This document shows, piece after piece, positions 53,843-63,714 of a stretch of 64,000 nucleotides of DNA. This DNA is from Candidatus Woesebacteria bacterium (lineage in GTDB: Bacteria; Patescibacteriota; Microgenomatia; UBA8517). Below the pieces are notes generated by a model. The model saw only the letters and a program-made list of their open reading frames with translations. It ran no database searches and had not been told where the DNA came from. The DNA is taken from contig JAGVAE010000002.1 of assembly GCA_020060565.1 (NCBI GenBank), positions 179,255 to 243,254 of the forward strand, in the 5' to 3' direction. The position numbers were made by a program, and so were the translations under genes. How positions within the stretch are numbered: position 1 is the stretch's first letter; every line of letters starts with the position of its first letter.

Positions 53843-53962
53843 GAATCATTATATAATTCTGGCAGTACAAAGTTAATATATCTGCTGGATCAAGCTAGTC
53901 AATGAAATGTATTTAGAGTATTTGCCAACAGTTGAATGAGTGTTAAAATACGCTCAGACAAC

Positions 53963-54031
53963 GGGGCATAGTATAACGGCAGTATGCGTGCATGGGGTGT
54001 ACGTGATCTCAGTCCAATTCTGAGTGCCCCG
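53963..54031 (+). tRNA. tRNA-like element; possible tRNA-Pro(GGG) with non-canonical dimensions
   Basis: GGGGCAU…GUGCCCC forms an acceptor helix of 6-7 bp with a G discriminator. A D-arm contains GG. The anticodon stem is CGUGC/GUACG with loop AUGGGGU (U33, anticodon GGG, G37). The T-arm is CUCAG-UCCAAUU-CUGAG. It is 69 nt, 2 nt shorter than the canonical minimum, has A8 instead of U8, and competes with an alternative GCAUA/UAUGC hairpin. Confidence 0.3.
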
Positions 54032-54078
54032 AAAGAGATTCTTCTTGACTTCGGGTTTTATTTGCGTAAGAATGGGGT

Positions 54079-60497: not shown

Positions 60498-61493
60498 ATG
60501 AACAAATTATTAATAATTTGTGGTCCAACCGCAACAGGTAAAACTAGACTTGGAATCTCCTTGGCCAAAAAATTTAATGGGGAAATTGTTTCAGCTGATT
60601 CTCGTCAAGTTTTTGTTGGTATGGATATAGGAACGGGCAAGGATCTGCCCGCAAACTCTAAACTCCAAACCCTAAACTCTAAATTAGGATTTAGAAATTC
60701 GGATTTAGGATTTTACCTGATTCAAGGAATCAGGTTGTGGGGTTATGATTTAGTTTCCCCTAAAGATGAATTCAGTGTTTCCAAATATTTAAGGTGTGTT
60801 CAGAAAGTAATTGGGGATATTGAAAAGAGGGGCAAGCTTCCTATCTTGGTTGGCGGAACGGGATTATATATAAAAGGTGTGGTTGATGGAATACCAACGG
60901 TGGATATTCCACGTAATAAAAAATTAAGGGAAAACCTGGAAAAACTAACGGCTGATGAAATGTATGAACACCTTTCCCAAATTGACTCTTTTCGTGCCGG
61001 AGCAATGAATTCATCTGACAAGAAAAATCCCAGGCGTCTTATACGTGCAATTGAGGTGGCTATGTGGATGATTGATAACTCACAAAGGAACTTTCCACAA
61101 AATAAGAAAGCATTTAATACTTTGTTTATAGGGCTTTCTGCTCCGAGTGGATATTTGGAGAAAAAAATAAACAAAAGAGTAGAGGCGAGAATTGATATGG
61201 GGTTTGAGAAAGAAGTTGAAAACCTAATTAAATTTGGGGTTGATTGGAATGACCAATCTATGATGTCACTTGGATATAGGCAGTGGAGGGACTTTGCTGA
61301 AGGGGCTGTGGAGAAGGAGCGTGCGGTGTCTGAATGGAAAAAGGAGGAGAGAAAATATGCCAAACGCCAGATTACCTGGTGGAAACGTGATGGGAGGATA
61401 AACTGGTTTGACATTAGAGAGGCCGATTATCCAAAAAAGGTGGAAAATCTGGTCAAAAAGTGGTATAAAGTAAATAATGTTGCGAAAGATTGA
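60498..61493 (+). CDS. miaA: tRNA dimethylallyltransferase with an in-frame low-complexity insertion
   Basis: The P-loop is LIICGPTATGKT; SADSRQVFVGMDIGTGK follows. A ~25-aa insertion (LPANSKLQTLNSKLGFRNSDLGF) is encoded by heptamer repeats. Confidence 0.9.
   Translation: MNKLLIICGPTATGKTRLGISLAKKFNGEIVSADSRQVFVGMDIGTGKDLPANSKLQTLNSKLGFRNSDLGFYLIQGIRLWGYDLVSPKDEFSVSKYLRCVQKVIGDIEKRGKLPILVGGTGLYIKGVVDGIPTVDIPRNKKLRENLEKLTADEMYEHLSQIDSFRAGAMNSSDKKNPRRLIRAIEVAMWMIDNSQRNFPQNKKAFNTLFIGLSAPSGYLEKKINKRVEARIDMGFEKEVENLIKFGVDWNDQSMMSLGYRQWRDFAEGAVEKERAVSEWKKEERKYAKRQITWWKRDGRINWFDIREADYPKKVENLVKKWYKVNNVAKD
60654..60716 (+). repeat. Heptamer tandem repeats in inverted arrangement (AAACYCY x4, then ATTTAGR x4) inside miaA
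   Basis: AAACTCTAAACTCCAAACCCTAAACTCTAAATTAGGATTTAGAAATTCGGATTTAGGATTTTA. The second half is related to the intergenic repeat at 27649-27682. Confidence 0.6.
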
Positions 61494-62451
61494 GATTTCT
61501 CACAAAACCATTATTTTTGCCGTTCTTTTCCTAATTTCTTTAGGATTTCTTTACTTTATTAGAGATATCATCCTTGAGCTTTTTGTGGCGCTTCTATTAA
61601 TGACAATTTTGGAGCCTTTGGTTGGTAAGCTAACTAAAATTAAGGTTCCCAGAGCAATTTCCGTGCTTTTATCATACCTTGTGTTTTTTGGAATTTTTGG
61701 GGGAGTAATTGCTCTTATCGCTCCCCCTTTGATTGAACAGACAACCAGTTTTGCTAATTATATACCTACTTACATCTCTAATATGGGAATAGATCCCGCA
61801 ATTGGGGATCAGGTAATGAAAGAGGCAATAGCTGCGATTGGAAATATTCCATCTCAACTTATTAAGTTTAGTGTTTCACTTTTTTCAAATGTTTTGGCCG
61901 TTCTTACTGTTTTGGCTTTCACTTTTTATTTACTAATGTCCAGAGGAAAACTTAATGAACAACTGAGTTCTTTTTTCGGTACAGCCCAAAAAGAAAAGCT
62001 AATAAATGTTATATATGCTCTTGAGAAAAAACTTGGTGGTTGGGCACGGGGACAGTTAATTCTTATGGTTTTGGTGGGAGTTCTCAATTTCATAGCACTT
62101 ACAATTTTAGGGGTTCCTTTTGCTCTACCTTTGGCTGTTCTATCAGGACTACTTGAAATAATTCCTTATTTAGGACCAATTCTGGGAGCAATTCCTGGAG
62201 TTTTGATTGGTTTTGGCATCTCTCCTCTTACGGGTTTTGGAGTAGCTATTGCAGCCTTTCTTATTCAACAACTTGAGAACTATGTTTTTGTCCCAAAGGT
62301 GATGGAGAAATCAGTAGGTGTGTCTCCAATTATTACAATTTTAGCTTTGGCAATTGGAGGAAGGATTGCTGGTATTGTGGGAATAATCATCTCAGTTCCT
62401 GTGGTTATTACTCTTAACGTTATACTTAAAGAATACTTTGCCAAGGATTAA
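61477..62451 (+). CDS. AI-2E family transporter (PerM/YdiK-like)
   Basis: 324 aa with about 8 TM segments; …LFVALLLMTILEPLVGKLTKIKVPRAISVLLSYLVFFG… is the typical AI-2E architecture. Confidence 0.7.
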   Translation: MLRKIEISHKTIIFAVLFLISLGFLYFIRDIILELFVALLLMTILEPLVGKLTKIKVPRAISVLLSYLVFFGIFGGVIALIAPPLIEQTTSFANYIPTYISNMGIDPAIGDQVMKEAIAAIGNIPSQLIKFSVSLFSNVLAVLTVLAFTFYLLMSRGKLNEQLSSFFGTAQKEKLINVIYALEKKLGGWARGQLILMVLVGVLNFIALTILGVPFALPLAVLSGLLEIIPYLGPILGAIPGVLIGFGISPLTGFGVAIAAFLIQQLENYVFVPKVMEKSVGVSPIITILALAIGGRIAGIVGIIISVPVVITLNVILKEYFAKD

Positions 62452-62460
62452 TTACTCCAC

Positions 62461-62485
62461 AAAAAATCCCGCATGAAAGCGGGAT
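62461..62485. terminator. Bidirectional Rho-independent terminator hairpin
   Basis: AAAAAA-ATCCCGC-ATGAAA-GCGGGAT-CCTTTGT. This gives a U-run on the minus strand (ending the rnpB-side transcript) and a T-rich tail on the plus strand (after the AI-2E gene). Confidence 0.55.
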
Positions 62486-62533
62486 CCTTTGTACTTTAGA
62501 GGTTAGTAAGCAAAGCTTGCTAACTGTTATTTC

Positions 62534-62560
62534 CAAAAAAATACCCACTTGCGTGAGTAT
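62534..62560 (-). terminator. Rho-independent terminator immediately 3' of rnpB
   Basis: Minus strand: AAAUACUCAC-GCAA-GUGGGUAU followed by UUUUUUU. Confidence 0.55.
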
Positions 62561-62564
62561 TTCT

Positions 62565-62912
62565 TTACTTTAGAGGTTAGTAAGCCAGGTTCTGTTTCTC
62601 GATGATCATCCATCTAACGCCCTCGAACTTCGTCCCGCCTCTTGGTTTTACCCAAGATTTTTTAAAAACATTTTTCGCCCGGTAAGGGGCGGGACTTTCG
62701 GAGGTTGCACCGGCGAGGATTGCCTCTTTTCACTCGTTTTCTCCTACCTTTAGGGTAGAAGGCACGACATAGTTTCTGTGGCTCTAGCTGGCGCTTATGC
62801 GCTCAGGCTTACGCCTGACAGCCTGTTTTCTGGTGCCTGGACTTTCCTCCCCGTTAGATAGCGAGCTCTTGCGAGCTCTATCTCACAGGGCGATCATCCT
62901 TCCTCTAAAGTA
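62565..62912 (-). ncRNA. rnpB: RNase P RNA (bacterial type, compact)
   Basis: Minus-strand read: P1 is ACUUUAGAGG…CCUCUAAAGU. P2 is GAUGAUC/GAUCAUC. P3 is a GCAA-tetraloop hairpin. The universal P4 5' strand is GGGGAGGAAAGUCCAGGC, and the 3' strand is GAAACAGAACCUGGCUUAC (consensus ACAGAAcCCGGCUUA). The region is GC-enriched and has several internal helices (GUCCCGCC/GGCGGGAC, CUUGG-GUAAAA-CCAAG). Confidence 0.8.
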
Positions 62913-62917
62913 GAAGC

Positions 62918-62926
62918 ATTATACCA
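62918..62926 (-). promoter_or_regulatory. Extended -10 promoter for rnpB (TGgTATAAT on the minus strand)
   Basis: Minus strand: …AAAAGTGGTATAATGCTTCT|ACUUUAGAGG. The TATAAT ends 6 nt before the P1 5' nucleotide. Confidence 0.45.
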
Positions 62927-62949
62927 CTTTTGGAGTAAAATCTCAGGTT

Positions 62950-63714
62950 TTATGAGACCAAGGTTCCAATTTTTTCACCTCTTAATATTTTTTCCAATTC
63001 TCGAAGTTTTTTAATATTGAAAACAATAATTGGCATTTTGTGTTTTTGACAAAGGGCAAAGGCGGTTGCATCCATTACTTCAAGATGTTTTTCTAATGCT
63101 TCTTGGTAACAGACGTTTTCATACAATTTAGCTTTATTATTCTTTGTTGGATTTTCTGAATAAATTCCATCTACTGAAGAGGCTTTTAAGATAACGTCGC
63201 AATGAAGCTCAATTGCCCTCAGAGCCGCTCCCGAATCGGTTGTAAAAAATGGATGCCCTGTTCCTGCAGTGAGGATTACAATTCTACCCTTTTCCAGATG
63301 TCTTATTGCCCGTCTTCTAATGTAGGGTTCTGCCACCGATTTAATATCAAAAGCTGTCATCATGCGGGTGGGGGCACCAAGACGTTCAAAAGCTTCTTGA
63401 AGAGCCATACCATTCATCACTGTTGCCAACATTCCCATGTAATCAGCCGTTGCCTGATCAACCTTTATGGCCTTTTCTCTTCCTCTAAAGATATTTCCTC
63501 CCCCTATAACAATTGATAGATCGATTTTTGTTTTCTTCCAGATCTTTATAATTTGAGCGGCAATATTCTCGTATGCAGCAAAATTGATACCTTTATCGTC
63601 TTTTTCTGAAAACAATTCCCCCGTAAGTTTTAGAAGTACTTGTTTGTATTTGAGCTTATCGGTTTGCACTGGAGGTATTATACCACCCGATTGGGTATTT
63701 TTCTTATTATTCAT
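62950..63714 (-). CDS. pyrH: UMP kinase
   Basis: …YKQVLLKLTGELF…IVIGGGNIFRG…; 254 aa. Confidence 0.95.
   Translation of the reverse strand: MNNKKNTQSGGIIPPVQTDKLKYKQVLLKLTGELFSEKDDKGINFAAYENIAAQIIKIWKKTKIDLSIVIGGGNIFRGREKAIKVDQATADYMGMLATVMNGMALQEAFERLGAPTRMMTAFDIKSVAEPYIRRRAIRHLEKGRIVILTAGTGHPFFTTDSGAALRAIELHCDVILKASSVDGIYSENPTKNNKAKLYENVCYQEALEKHLEVMDATAFALCQKHKMPIIVFNIKKLRELEKILRGEKIGTLVS

What the first reader, a model, noticed from the sequence alone, without database searches (positions are those of the whole stretch)
62491..62926. RNase P RNA on the minus strand (absent from the ORF track), with a duplicated 3' segment and tandem terminators
The ~350-nt GC-enriched gap between the AI-2E gene and pyrH folds as RNase P RNA on the minus strand. 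The P1, P2, P3 (GCAA tetraloop) and P4 elements match the type-A consensus. An extended -10 (TGgTATAAT) sits 6 nt upstream of P1. A terminator directly follows P1. The last ~24 nt of the RNA (ACAG…GCUUACUAACCUCUAAAGUA) are then repeated ~75 nt downstream (plus-strand 62491-62511 versus 62565-62585), followed by a second, bidirectional terminator. A second GAAAGUCC box also occurs in the 3' half (CCUCCGAAAGUCCCGCC). The duplication could be a remnant of local duplication or could offer an alternative 3' pairing partner.
Basis: partly seen in the sequence, partly recalled or inferred. Interest (0 to 1): 0.5.

Follow-up and report, generated by a model that had tools for sequence, protein, structure and literature searches.

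The report
RNase P RNA with duplicated tail
The gap between two genes holds an ordinary, reduced RNase P RNA gene of an uncultured CPR (Woesebacteria-type) bacterium, followed by a spare copy of the gene's last 20 bases folded into a hairpin with its own terminator; this add-on recurs in some relatives, is missing from the closest one, and is most likely a recombination leftover rather than a working part of the enzyme.

Summary
The RNase P RNA call is correct. Rfam RF00010 matches window 62565-62909 (minus strand) at 110.3 bits (gathering score 100), full length. The RNA lacks P13/P14 and P18, as already described for CPR bacteria. A conserved extended -10 promoter and a strong terminator flank it.

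The exact 20-nt repeat of the RNA's 3' end (X1 62566-62585, X2 62492-62511) is real: two copies, none expected by chance.

It is not private to this genome. Eight relatives carry the same stereotyped layout ("type 1"): terminator 1, spacer, a hairpin made of an inverted partial copy plus X2, then an unrelated second terminator. Other lineages carry a second type or decayed copies. The closest relative (L166) lacks the module.

The hairpin shows two-sided covariation and pairs better on the strand opposite rnpB. No integrase, cargo or viral attP was found.

Best reading: a displaced pseudo-3'-end, left by recombinational turnover of the rnpB 3' end and terminator. It is dispensable, and its hairpin is kept intact while the copy is young.

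Interest is moderate to low: a known gene with an undescribed but probably non-essential appendage.

The parts
62918..62946 (-). rnpB promoter: weak -35-like CTGAGA (62946-62941), a 17-nt spacer, and the extended -10 TGgTATAAT (62926-62918). The predicted transcription start is at or near the first P1 base.
   Evidence: 10/12 match, TG present. GTGGTATAAT/ACT is conserved at the same distance from P1 in L001-L004, L091, L113, L166 and L200.
62566..62912 (-). RNase P RNA gene (rnpB), bacterial type A, reduced form. P13/P14 and P18 are absent, P3 is extended with a GCAA loop, and there is an insertion in P16/P17.
   Evidence: RF00010, 110.3 bits against GA 100, 62565-62909, full model. P1 extends to 62912/62566. 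Orthologues sit at the same position in relatives.
62566..62585 (-). X1: the last 20 nt of the RNA, GCUUACUAACCUCUAAAGUA (end of the P4 3' strand, a joining region, and the P1 3' strand). This is the functional copy.
   Evidence: It pairs with the 5' strand at 62912-62902.
62535..62560 (-). Terminator 1: AUACUCAC-GCAA-GUGGGUAU plus U7. It is strand-specific, with a G.U pair on the rnpB strand.
   Evidence: -14.9 kcal/mol, z -7.7 on the rnpB strand, against -6.4 on the opposite strand.
62512..62534 (-). Spacer GGAAAUAACA, then the arm GUUAGCAAGC (62524-62515, an inverted partial copy of X with one A-to-G difference), then the loop UUU (62514-62512).
   Evidence: The conserved consensus AAUARCR-arm-(C)AAGC-UYY is present in eight lineages.
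62492..62511 (-). X2: an exact second copy of the 20-nt 3' end. Its first 10-11 nt form the 3' arm of the hairpin at 62501-62525.
   Evidence: exact repeat, 0 expected by chance; hairpin -13.4 kcal/mol, z -3.0 on the plus strand; -7.3, z -0.7 on the rnpB strand.
62461..62487 (.). Terminator 2: GGAUCCCGC-UUUCAU-GCGGGAU plus U6. It is shared back-to-back with the convergent AI-2E transporter gene and is unrelated in sequence to terminator 1.
   Evidence: -19.5 kcal/mol, z -6.6 on the rnpB strand; -14.2 on the plus strand. (plus-strand terminator-like site at 62466-62485).
61477..62451 (+). Convergent downstream gene, an AI-2E family transporter (context only).
   Evidence: PF01594, E 2e-57.
62950..63714 (-). 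Upstream gene pyrH, UMP kinase (context only; its stop lies 37 nt before the RNA start).
   Evidence: PF00696.

Best explanation
The locus encodes a normal, reduced type-A RNase P RNA of a Woesebacteria/Microgenomates (CPR) bacterium. It is transcribed from its own extended -10 promoter and ends at terminator 1.

The roughly 80 nt beyond terminator 1 (spacer, inverted arm, X2, terminator 2) are not part of the ribozyme. They are a displaced pseudo-3'-end: a former or foreign unit of 'last 20 nt of rnpB plus its terminator' that now lies downstream of the working one.

Inferred mechanism. The conserved rnpB body on one side and the 20-nt X sequence (or the flanking gene) on the other act as recombination anchors between related genomes. 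Units of 'X + terminator' are added next to the gene, pushed distally, lost again by recombination between the direct repeats, or left to decay. That produces presence/absence polymorphism and arrays of up to three copies.

The inverted arm pairs with the first half of X2. This pairing is kept intact by compensatory changes while the copy is young. The most economical reason (inferred, not shown) is that it keeps a perfect mimic of the P4/P1 3' strand, and its complement, from interfering with RNase P RNA. A modest hairpin function on the opposite strand is the alternative.

Shown: the gene, the repeat, the recurrence, the polymorphism, the decay and the covariation. Inferred: the recombination route and the reason for hairpin maintenance. 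Unknown: how the inverted arm first arose.
For: The gene: RF00010, 110.3 bits, full length; orthologues in 11 relatives, always ending at the proximal copy X1; the P1 5' and 3' strands co-vary across lineages.

The repeat is real.

Recurrence: the same architecture is found 69-91 nt downstream in L004, L091, L095, L098/L200, L104, L106, L113, L126 and L179. Model R1 finds it only just 3' of rnpB in 505 kb.

Dispensable and polymorphic: L166/L167 are about 97-99% identical to the window through the rnpB body and lack the 80 nt cleanly. L115 against L091 (96.4% identical) lacks a 74-nt unit, and its 3' end plus terminator equals L091's X2 plus terminator 2.

Units move: the same 'X + terminator' family is the only unit in L001, proximal in L091 and distal in L179. 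Another family is the only unit in L116/L096, proximal in L179 and the L180 group, and distal in L168.

Arrays and decay: L113 has three copies, the most distal being the most degraded. The L180-L188 alleles differ at about 7 of 90 remnant positions while rnpB and terminator 1 are identical. Probable decayed copies occur in L085 and L101.

Not a simple duplication: terminators 1 and 2 are unrelated although X1 equals X2.

Hairpin maintained: 90% of cells paired, 6 of 14 pairs changed on both sides, covariation 0.329 against 0.206 in shuffles (0 of 500), slid controls 18-48%. Private compensations occur in L126 and L179.

A recombinationally active locus: the cassette is inverted in L094, L098/L200 and L110, and two genes are inserted in L168.
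Against: The stereotyped junction is not explained by generic recombination. It always falls at G|GCUUAC, with the conserved AAUARCR-arm-(C)AAGC-UYY and an invariant C opposite A in all 8 sequences.

Two-sided covariation plus sequence invariants across clade-level divergence is what a selected, functional element looks like.

X2 and the arm track the lineage-specific sequence of X1, including unpaired joining-region positions. That requires either repeated recent events or homogenisation, and neither was shown directly.

Which unit is the newcomer is ambiguous for the window itself. L166's single terminator resembles the window's terminator 1, whereas in L091/L115 and L179/L001 the distal unit is the native one.

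There are no expression data. The rnpB-body tree is short and noisy.
Confidence: 0.5

Rival explanations
1. The hairpin module is a functional accessory RNA (or single-stranded DNA) element that evolved from a copy of the rnpB 3' end. The selected structure would be on the strand opposite rnpB. It might act as an extra terminator or insulator against transcription running antisense into rnpB, or as a small antisense RNA whose 5' part is complementary to the RNase P RNA 3' end.
For: There is covariation with 6 two-sided pairs, plus conserved loop and flank.

The helix is 90.2% paired on the antisense alignment against 78.6% on the sense alignment. One pair is U.G in 8 of 8 antisense sequences and C.A in 8 of 8 sense sequences.

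In the window the plus-strand hairpin scores -13.4 kcal/mol (z -3.0), against -7.3 (z -0.7) on the rnpB strand. Six of eight modules favour the antisense strand.

The same strand test gives the expected answer for terminator 1, which favours the sense strand.

The plus-strand hairpin is flagged as terminator-like.
Against: The module is absent from the closest relative and from about 70% of lineages, and it decays in several.

Its presence is not associated with a convergent downstream gene. L126, with the best hairpin, and L104 have co-directional neighbours.

The U-tract after the antisense hairpin is weak, and no convincing promoter was found.

The invariant U.G may be inherited from a single origin rather than independently selected.

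There is no Rfam match.
Confidence: 0.27
2. X1 and X2 are attL/attR-type direct repeats left by a site-specific integrative element, or a miniature cassette, that targets the 3' end of rnpB and restores the gene with its own copy. This is what tRNA- and tmRNA-targeting islands do. The palindrome arm-loop-X would be the recombinase core site.
For: There is a direct repeat of the target gene's 3' end, with the gene regenerated.

Presence/absence indels are clean.

Arrays occur with older copies more distal.

The imperfect palindrome is centred next to the repeat boundary.

The known behaviour of integrative elements includes tandem arrays and gene replacement (PMC7192596, PMC4383910).
Against: Only 54 nt lie between the repeats, and they consist of a terminator. 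There is no integrase or cargo in any of 14 or so module-bearing lineages, and no distant copy of X within the kb-scale flanks held for each locus.

No viral contig carries the junction in context or the rnpB 3' end.

The palindrome's dyad lies outside the block shared with the intact target, so a conventional overlap region does not fit.

The arm co-varies with X2 rather than being a conserved protein-binding sequence.

The literature searches found no report of rnpB as an integration target.
Confidence: 0.12
3. One reading: X2 is an alternative 3' partner for the P1 5' strand, giving a second RNase P RNA isoform or a folding switch in transcripts that read through terminator 1.
For: In a modelled read-through RNA the minimum-energy fold pairs the 5' strand with X2: -172.8 kcal/mol, against -168.2 when P1 is forced onto X1. 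The X2 tail stays complementary to the 5' strand in most lineages.
Against: That fold pairs the arm with X1's GCUU and splits the P4 3' strand, which is the catalytic core.

Terminator 1 is strong, and P1 can form with X1 before X2 is transcribed.

Private changes in L126 (an A.A mismatch with the 5' strand) and in L179 are compensated within arm-X2, not with the 5' strand or X1.

X2 also tracks X1 at unpaired joining-region positions, which indicates copying rather than selection for P1 pairing.

The closest relative lacks the module.
Confidence: 0.04
4. The duplication is an assembly artefact, for example two strain alleles of the 3' end and terminator threaded in series.
For: The window's own module is seen in one assembly only. 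X is a short shared repeat between divergent terminators, the kind of place where assembly graphs tangle.
Against: The spacer, arm and loop have no source in any single-unit allele.

The same architecture is found in independent assemblies from different projects and assemblers (JGI, ENA, Logan, NCBI MAGs). The identical type-1 module appears in two JGI samples (L200, L201 = L098). The L004-type module appears in six further assemblies (L205-L210). The decayed L180-type remnant appears in about nine samples.
Confidence: 0.02

Closest known systems
Bacterial RNase P RNA, type A (Rfam RF00010), in the reduced CPR form described by Lui et al. 2021 (PMC8172020)
   Same: The full-length covariance-model match is above the gathering score. 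The CR-I GAGGAAAGUCC and ACAGAACCUGGCUUA P4 strands are present. P1-P12 and P15 align. The low score, missing P13/P14 and P18, and extended helices match what is reported for CPR genomes.
   Different: Nothing essential differs. Local peculiarities are an extended P3, an insertion in P16/P17, and a P18-position helix that is present or absent even between 96%-identical relatives.
Displaced 3' fragments of tRNA/tmRNA genes at the ends of integrative genetic elements (Islander/TIGER; PMC4383910, PMC7192596)
   Same: A regenerated small-RNA gene is followed by a direct repeat of its own 3' end. Indels are clean between relatives. Tandem arrays occur, with older fragments further out. One case, L168, looks like replacement of the gene.
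   Different: No element lies between the repeats, only 54 nt carrying a terminator. There is no integrase, and no attP in viral collections. The displaced copy carries an adjacent inverted arm that forms a co-varying hairpin. The target is rnpB, which my literature searches did not find reported as a target.
Tandem or bidirectional intrinsic terminators between convergent genes
   Same: Two strong hairpin-plus-U-run terminators lie between rnpB and the convergent AI-2E gene. The second also folds on both strands.
   Different: Tandem terminators do not normally come with an exact copy of the upstream gene's last 20 nt, nor with a third hairpin built from that copy.
Leader-proximal growth of repeat arrays (integron cassette arrays, CRISPR arrays) - an analogy of topology only
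   Same: There is a repeat-insert-repeat topology. New units appear next to the functional end and older, degenerate units lie distally. A structure-conserved, sequence-variable hairpin sits beside the repeat, favoured on one strand, as with attC sites.
   Different: No IntI or Cas1 genes, and no core-site or repeat features of those systems, were tested or found. The units are only about 75 nt and carry no cargo. This is a resemblance recalled from general knowledge, not a tested membership.

Membership tests
RNaseP_bact_a (RF00010) | Covariance-model score at or above the curated gathering score, over the full model | tested here: met
   110.3 bits against 100, E 7.5e-33, model 1-367, window 62565-62909 minus strand.
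RNaseP_bact_a (RF00010) | Universally conserved P4-forming strands (GAGGAAAGUCC ... ACAGAAnCnGGCUUA) | tested here: met
   GGAGGAAAGUCCAGG and AACAGAACCUGGCUUAC both align to the model consensus at high posterior probability.
RNaseP_bact_a (RF00010) | Terminal P1 helix closing the molecule, supported by covariation in relatives | tested here: met
   UACUUUAGAGG/CCUCUAAAGUA here. Relatives have UCUGGAGA/UCUCCAGA, UCUAGAGG/CCUCUAGA and UUUGGAGA/UCUCCAAA.
RNaseP_bact_a (RF00010) | Type-A peripheral helices P13/P14 and P18 | tested here: not met
   43 and 24 model positions are replaced by 1 nt each. Their absence is a documented variation in CPR and other bacteria (PMC8172020) and does not define membership.
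RNaseP_bact_a (RF00010) | Expression and pre-tRNA 5' cleavage activity | not testable with these tools
   No transcript or biochemical data are available. The supporting evidence is indirect: a conserved promoter and terminator, and a single copy per locus in all relatives.
Integrative genetic element att-site duplication | Direct repeat of the target gene's 3' end, with the gene restored | tested here: met
   20 of 20 nt identical. Rfam ends the gene at X1.
Integrative genetic element att-site duplication | Integrase and cargo genes between the repeats (elements of 2-200 kb) | tested here: not met
   54 nt between the copies; no distant copies of X in any relative's locus.
Integrative genetic element att-site duplication | A free element (phage, plasmid or ICE) carrying the matching attP | tested here: not met
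   Searches (37 hits, all lacking the module context; 0 hits) in IMG/VR. CPR phages and plasmids may be under-sampled.
Intrinsic (Rho-independent) terminator | G+C-rich hairpin directly followed by a U-run on the transcribed strand | tested here: met
   terminator 1 at -14.9 kcal/mol (z -7.7) plus U7; terminator 2 at -19.5 (z -6.6) plus U6. Actual termination was not tested.
Structured non-coding RNA motif (candidate, undescribed) | Conserved secondary structure with compensatory changes in independent lineages | tested here: inconclusive
   6 of 14 pairs changed on both sides, and 0 of 500 shuffles reach the score. But there are only 8 related sequences. One arm is a copy of a constrained gene segment, and decayed copies exist.

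The most novel reading that the evidence does not exclude
The arm-loop-X2 hairpin is a genuine, undescribed accessory element of Woesebacteria rnpB loci, in one of two forms. It could be a small structured RNA made from the strand opposite rnpB, carrying a perfect 20-nt complement to the RNase P RNA 3' end, that modulates or protects RNase P RNA. Or it could be the recombination site of a miniature cassette system that swaps the 3' end and terminator of rnpB by adding units next to the gene, comparable in topology to integron or CRISPR arrays.
Probability: 0.15. Interest if true: 0.7.

Novelty: new variant of a known kind. Interest (0 to 1): 0.38.

Why it matters
The RNase P RNA itself only fills an annotation gap, because gene callers skip it or lay spurious ORFs over it.

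The appendage is of more interest. It shows that the 3' end of an essential, single-copy ribozyme gene in CPR bacteria is a recurrent site of sequence turnover. Pseudo-3'-ends there are added, shuffled, deleted and left to decay between close relatives.

If that turnover comes from recombination between community members, it is a compact and easily scored marker of gene flow in uncultured Patescibacteria. If the co-varying hairpin proves to be selected, it would be a new small RNA or DNA element born from a fragment of RNase P RNA.

In practice, such fragments can mislead boundary calls for rnpB, and anyone using rnpB as a completeness or phylogenetic marker should know they exist.

Tried and rejected
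(1) Phage or mobile-element attP. Two IMG/VR scans were run. The junction CAAGCTYYGCTTACTA gave 37 hits, all lacking the arm and tail context and about as many as chance predicts (my own estimate). The rnpB 3'-end pattern gave 0 hits.

(2) A large integrated element. No second copy of X lies beyond about 90 nt in any relative's locus.

(3) A known RNA family in the trailer. Only sub-threshold, terminator-like Rfam noise was found.

(4) A general process duplicating RNA-gene 3' ends in this genome. Nothing comparable is seen at tRNA-Pro.

(5) An insulator against a convergent gene. There is no association between the module and the orientation of the downstream gene.

(6) The remnant as a collapsed old rnpB (promoter plus P1 5' strand fused to the 3' end). 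L113 and L126 look suggestive, but L091, L098 and the window do not fit, so I dropped it.

(7) Identifying native against incoming units by terminator similarity. The results are contradictory between the window/L166 pair and the L091/L115 and L179/L001 pairs, and terminator stems may converge, so this is left open.

(8) Look-up of the window's own pyrH protein in the contig index found no record, so the source contig was not retrieved.

(9) Literature searches for rnpB as an integration target found nothing relevant.
Full report
**1. What is at the coordinates**

Reading the minus strand of 62200-63200 and scanning the whole window against Rfam gives a single hit above the gathering score. 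It is RF00010, bacterial RNase P RNA class A, at 62565-62909 on the minus strand: 110.3 bits (gathering score 100), E 7.5e-33, covering model positions 1-367.

Both P4-forming strands (GGAGGAAAGUCCAGG and AACAGAACCUGGCUUAC) align with high posterior probability. P3 is extended and capped by GAGCUC-GCAA-GAGCUC. The stretches of the model for P13/P14 (43 positions) and P18 (24 positions) are each replaced by one base. There is an insertion in P16/P17.

P1 complementarity runs three bases beyond the Rfam ends (UACUUUAGAGG at 62912-62902 with CCUCUAAAGUA at 62576-62566). The RNA is therefore about 347 nt, 62912 to 62566.

The flanking ORFs are pyrH (PF00696) and a convergent AI-2E transporter (PF01594), preceded by miaA.

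An extended -10 (TGgTATAAT, 62926-62918) sits 5 nt before P1. It is conserved at that distance in relatives.

pyrH homologues are named Microgenomates or Woesebacteria by their sources. Reduced, low-scoring RNase P RNAs lacking P13/P14/P16-P18 are already documented for such CPR genomes (Lui et al. 2021, PMC8172020). The gene itself is therefore correct and ordinary.

**2. The repeat and terminators**

The 20-mer GCTTACTAACCTCTAAAGTA occurs exactly twice in 64 kb, at 62566-62585 (X1, the RNA's 3' end) and 62492-62511 (X2). None of 100 shuffles gave a match.

- Terminator 1 (62560-62535): -14.9 kcal/mol, z -7.7, followed by U7.
- Terminator 2 (62487-62461): -19.5 kcal/mol, z -6.6, followed by U6. 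It also folds on the other strand, 10 nt from the AI-2E stop.

The two terminators share no sequence. The first 10-11 nt of X2 pair with an upstream inverted arm (GUUAGCAAGC, loop UUU), forming a hairpin at 62501-62525.

The 'second GAAAGUCC box' is not conserved. Relatives have CCUCCGAAA followed by UAGCC, UGGAC, CAGGU, GGGAC and so on.

**3. Relatives**

- A genome scan with pyrH gave four close Patescibacteria MAGs with rnpB directly after pyrH.
- A metagenome scan with a clade-specific rnpB motif gave 48 loci.
- Exact-protein look-ups of pyrH homologues gave about 45 more.

Extracting every 3' end shows that the window is not unique. The same layout lies 69-91 nt downstream of rnpB in several lineages. 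The layout is: terminator 1, a spacer with consensus AAUARCR, an arm, (C)AAGC, UYY, then GCUUAC... = X2, then an unrelated terminator 2.

- "Type 1" (this layout): L091, L095 (cut by the contig end), L098/L200, L106, L113, L126 and L179.
- "Type 2" (...AAGGUUCUCGA...GAGAGGUU-CUUAC...): L004 (= L205-L210) and L104. It also forms a third, degraded copy behind L113's type-1 module.
- A badly decayed type 2: L180-L188.
- A variant remnant: L168.
- Probable decayed type 1: L085 and L101.

Roughly 14 of 48 distinct tails carry a fresh or decayed copy (my count; it includes the two 'probable' calls L085 and L101). No locus has a distant copy of X. Rfam ends the gene at the proximal copy in every case. 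A covariance model of the hairpin finds it only just 3' of rnpB in 505 kb. The window's tRNA-Pro has no such duplication.

**4. Polymorphism and turnover**

L166/L167 are the closest relatives found (pyrH 86%). Their synteny is identical, X is identical, and the rnpB body is about 97-99% identical apart from the P3 loop. They lack exactly the 80 nt from the spacer to the end of terminator 2.

L091 and L115 are 96.4% identical across the locus. L115 lacks a 74-nt unit (X1, terminator 1, spacer, arm) and a 64-nt helix at the P18 position. Its 3' end plus terminator equals L091's X2 plus terminator 2.

'X + terminator' units fall into families that change position between genomes:

- One family is the only unit in L001, proximal in L091, and distal in L179, where it keeps L001's downstream flank.
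- Another is the only unit in L096/L109/L116, proximal in L179 and the L180 group, and distal in L168.
- The window's terminator 1 family is proximal in the window, L004, L104 and L098, and the only unit in L089.

The two alleles of the L180 group differ at about 7 of 90 remnant positions while rnpB and terminator 1 are identical. That is neutral decay.

On an rnpB-body tree, which is short and noisy, module-bearing lineages are scattered and each has a module-free sister.

The locus is otherwise unstable too. The whole cassette is inverted between pyrH and AI-2E in L094, L098/L200 and L110. Two genes are inserted between pyrH and rnpB in L168.

**5. The hairpin**

On an alignment of the eight type-1 modules the 14-bp helix is 90.2% paired on the strand opposite rnpB. 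Six pairs are changed on both sides. The covariation score is 0.329 against 0.206 in shuffles (0 of 500 reach it), and slid controls are 18-48% paired.

The mirrored helix on the rnpB strand is 78.6% paired. One position is U.G in 8 of 8 sequences on the opposite strand and C.A in 8 of 8 on the rnpB strand.

Six of eight modules fold better on the opposite strand. In the window the figures are -13.4 kcal/mol (z -3.0) against -7.3 (z -0.7). The same test correctly assigns terminator 1 to the rnpB strand.

Private substitutions are compensated within arm-X2:
- L126: arm ..GUGG.. with X2 ..CCAC.., while X1 (CCUC) matches the P1 5' strand.
- L179: arm CAAAC with X2 GUUUAC.

X2 tracks each genome's own X1, including at joining-region positions that are not Watson-Crick paired in P1. 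It is identical in the window, L098 and L113; it matches at 17-18 of 20 positions in L091, L126 and L179; and at 15 of 20 in L104 and L106.

**6. Interpretation**

The duplication is real and is not a simple in-place duplication, for two reasons. The terminators differ although X1 and X2 are identical. And the architecture is stereotyped across lineages that each use their own X.

It resembles the regenerated-gene-plus-displaced-fragment signature of elements that integrate into tRNA and tmRNA genes, including tandem arrays and gene replacement (PMC4383910, PMC7192596). But nothing lies between the repeats except a terminator. No integrase, cargo or viral attP was found. Searches found no report of rnpB as a target.

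I therefore favour the following reading, at 0.5. X2 plus terminator 2 is a pseudo-3'-end produced by recombinational turnover between related genomes. The turnover is anchored on the conserved rnpB body and on X or the flanking gene. It is removable by recombination between X1 and X2, and it decays with time.

The hairpin's compensatory evolution shows that some force keeps arm and X2 paired. I cannot tell whether that force is avoidance of interference with RNase P RNA folding or a small positive function on the opposite strand. The functional-element rival gets 0.27.

That rival is weakened by three things: the module's absence from the closest relative, its decay elsewhere, and the lack of association with convergent transcription (L126 and L104 have co-directional neighbours).

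It would split the P4 3' strand, and the private compensations in L126 and L179 contradict it (0.04). Assembly artefact is unlikely because the same architectures recur in independent assemblies (0.02).

**7. What remains unexplained**

- How the inverted arm arose.
- Why the junction is always at G|GCUUAC.
- Why the arm carries an invariant C opposite A.
- Why type-2 modules contain AGGUUCU, the reverse complement of the AGAACCU just upstream of X in rnpB, twice.

These features hint at a fold-back or template-switch event, or at a site-specific activity at this point. I could not test that.

**8. Verdict**

The RNase P RNA is already known in kind. The appendage is a previously undescribed, recurrent variant of the 'displaced 3' fragment' theme. 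It is probably non-essential. Interest 0.38.

Noticed in passing
L200 3180-3720 (also L094, L098, L110): The whole rnpB cassette, from promoter to terminator 2 and including the module, lies inverted between the same two flanking genes. rnpB is therefore convergent with pyrH and co-directional with the AI-2E gene. Several lineages share this arrangement.
   Followed up: partly
L168/L169 3224-5560: Two genes (NAD_binding_1, 481 aa; Cyt-b5, 131 aa) sit between pyrH and rnpB. Downstream of this rnpB there is a hairpin plus a remnant (CTCTTCTCCAGAGAC plus terminator) that closely matches L116's native 3' end. This looks like replacement of the resident rnpB by an incoming segment.
   Followed up: partly
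L091 versus L115; table: A helix of about 64-70 nt at the P18 position is present or absent between genomes that are 96% identical across the locus. Across the clade this position holds 0, about 30-40, about 50 or about 66-70 nt.
   Followed up: partly
window 62855-62895 versus L166: P3 of the window's RNase P RNA carries an extra GAGCUC-GCAA-GAGCUC extension of about 15-18 nt. The otherwise 97-99% identical L166 RNA lacks it.
   Followed up: no
L104, L004, L113 third copy: Type-2 modules contain AGGTTCT twice. This is the reverse complement of AGAACCT, the P4 3'-strand region immediately upstream of X in rnpB. It suggests small inverted duplications around the CTGG|CTTAC point.
   Followed up: no
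window 62535-62552 versus 62918-62930: The descending half of terminator 1 plus its T-run (AAGTGGGTATTTTTTT) resembles the rnpB promoter (AAGTGGTATAAT). Several terminator families in relatives share the GTGGGTAT motif. The significance is unknown.
   Followed up: no
window 53962-54032: The only tRNA in the 64-kb window, tRNA-Pro(GGG), has no encoded 3' CCA and no repeat of its 3' end nearby.
   Followed up: partly
window 62426-62548 (minus strand); L205 3269-3424: Mechanical or called ORFs (40 aa here, 51 aa in L205-L210) overlie the module or rnpB itself. They are almost certainly spurious calls over non-coding RNA.
   Followed up: no
window 61477-61493: The AI-2E transporter ORF starts 17 nt before the end of the miaA ORF, so the genes overlap. 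The same overlap is seen in relatives' gene calls (L166, L175, L179).
   Followed up: no
L123 tail: The terminator unit of L123 looks like a hybrid of two families: the GAGAC-TAAAA tail and AGTGG end of one, and the ACCACCAGAAATGGTGG stem of another. This is consistent with recombination inside the units.
   Followed up: no
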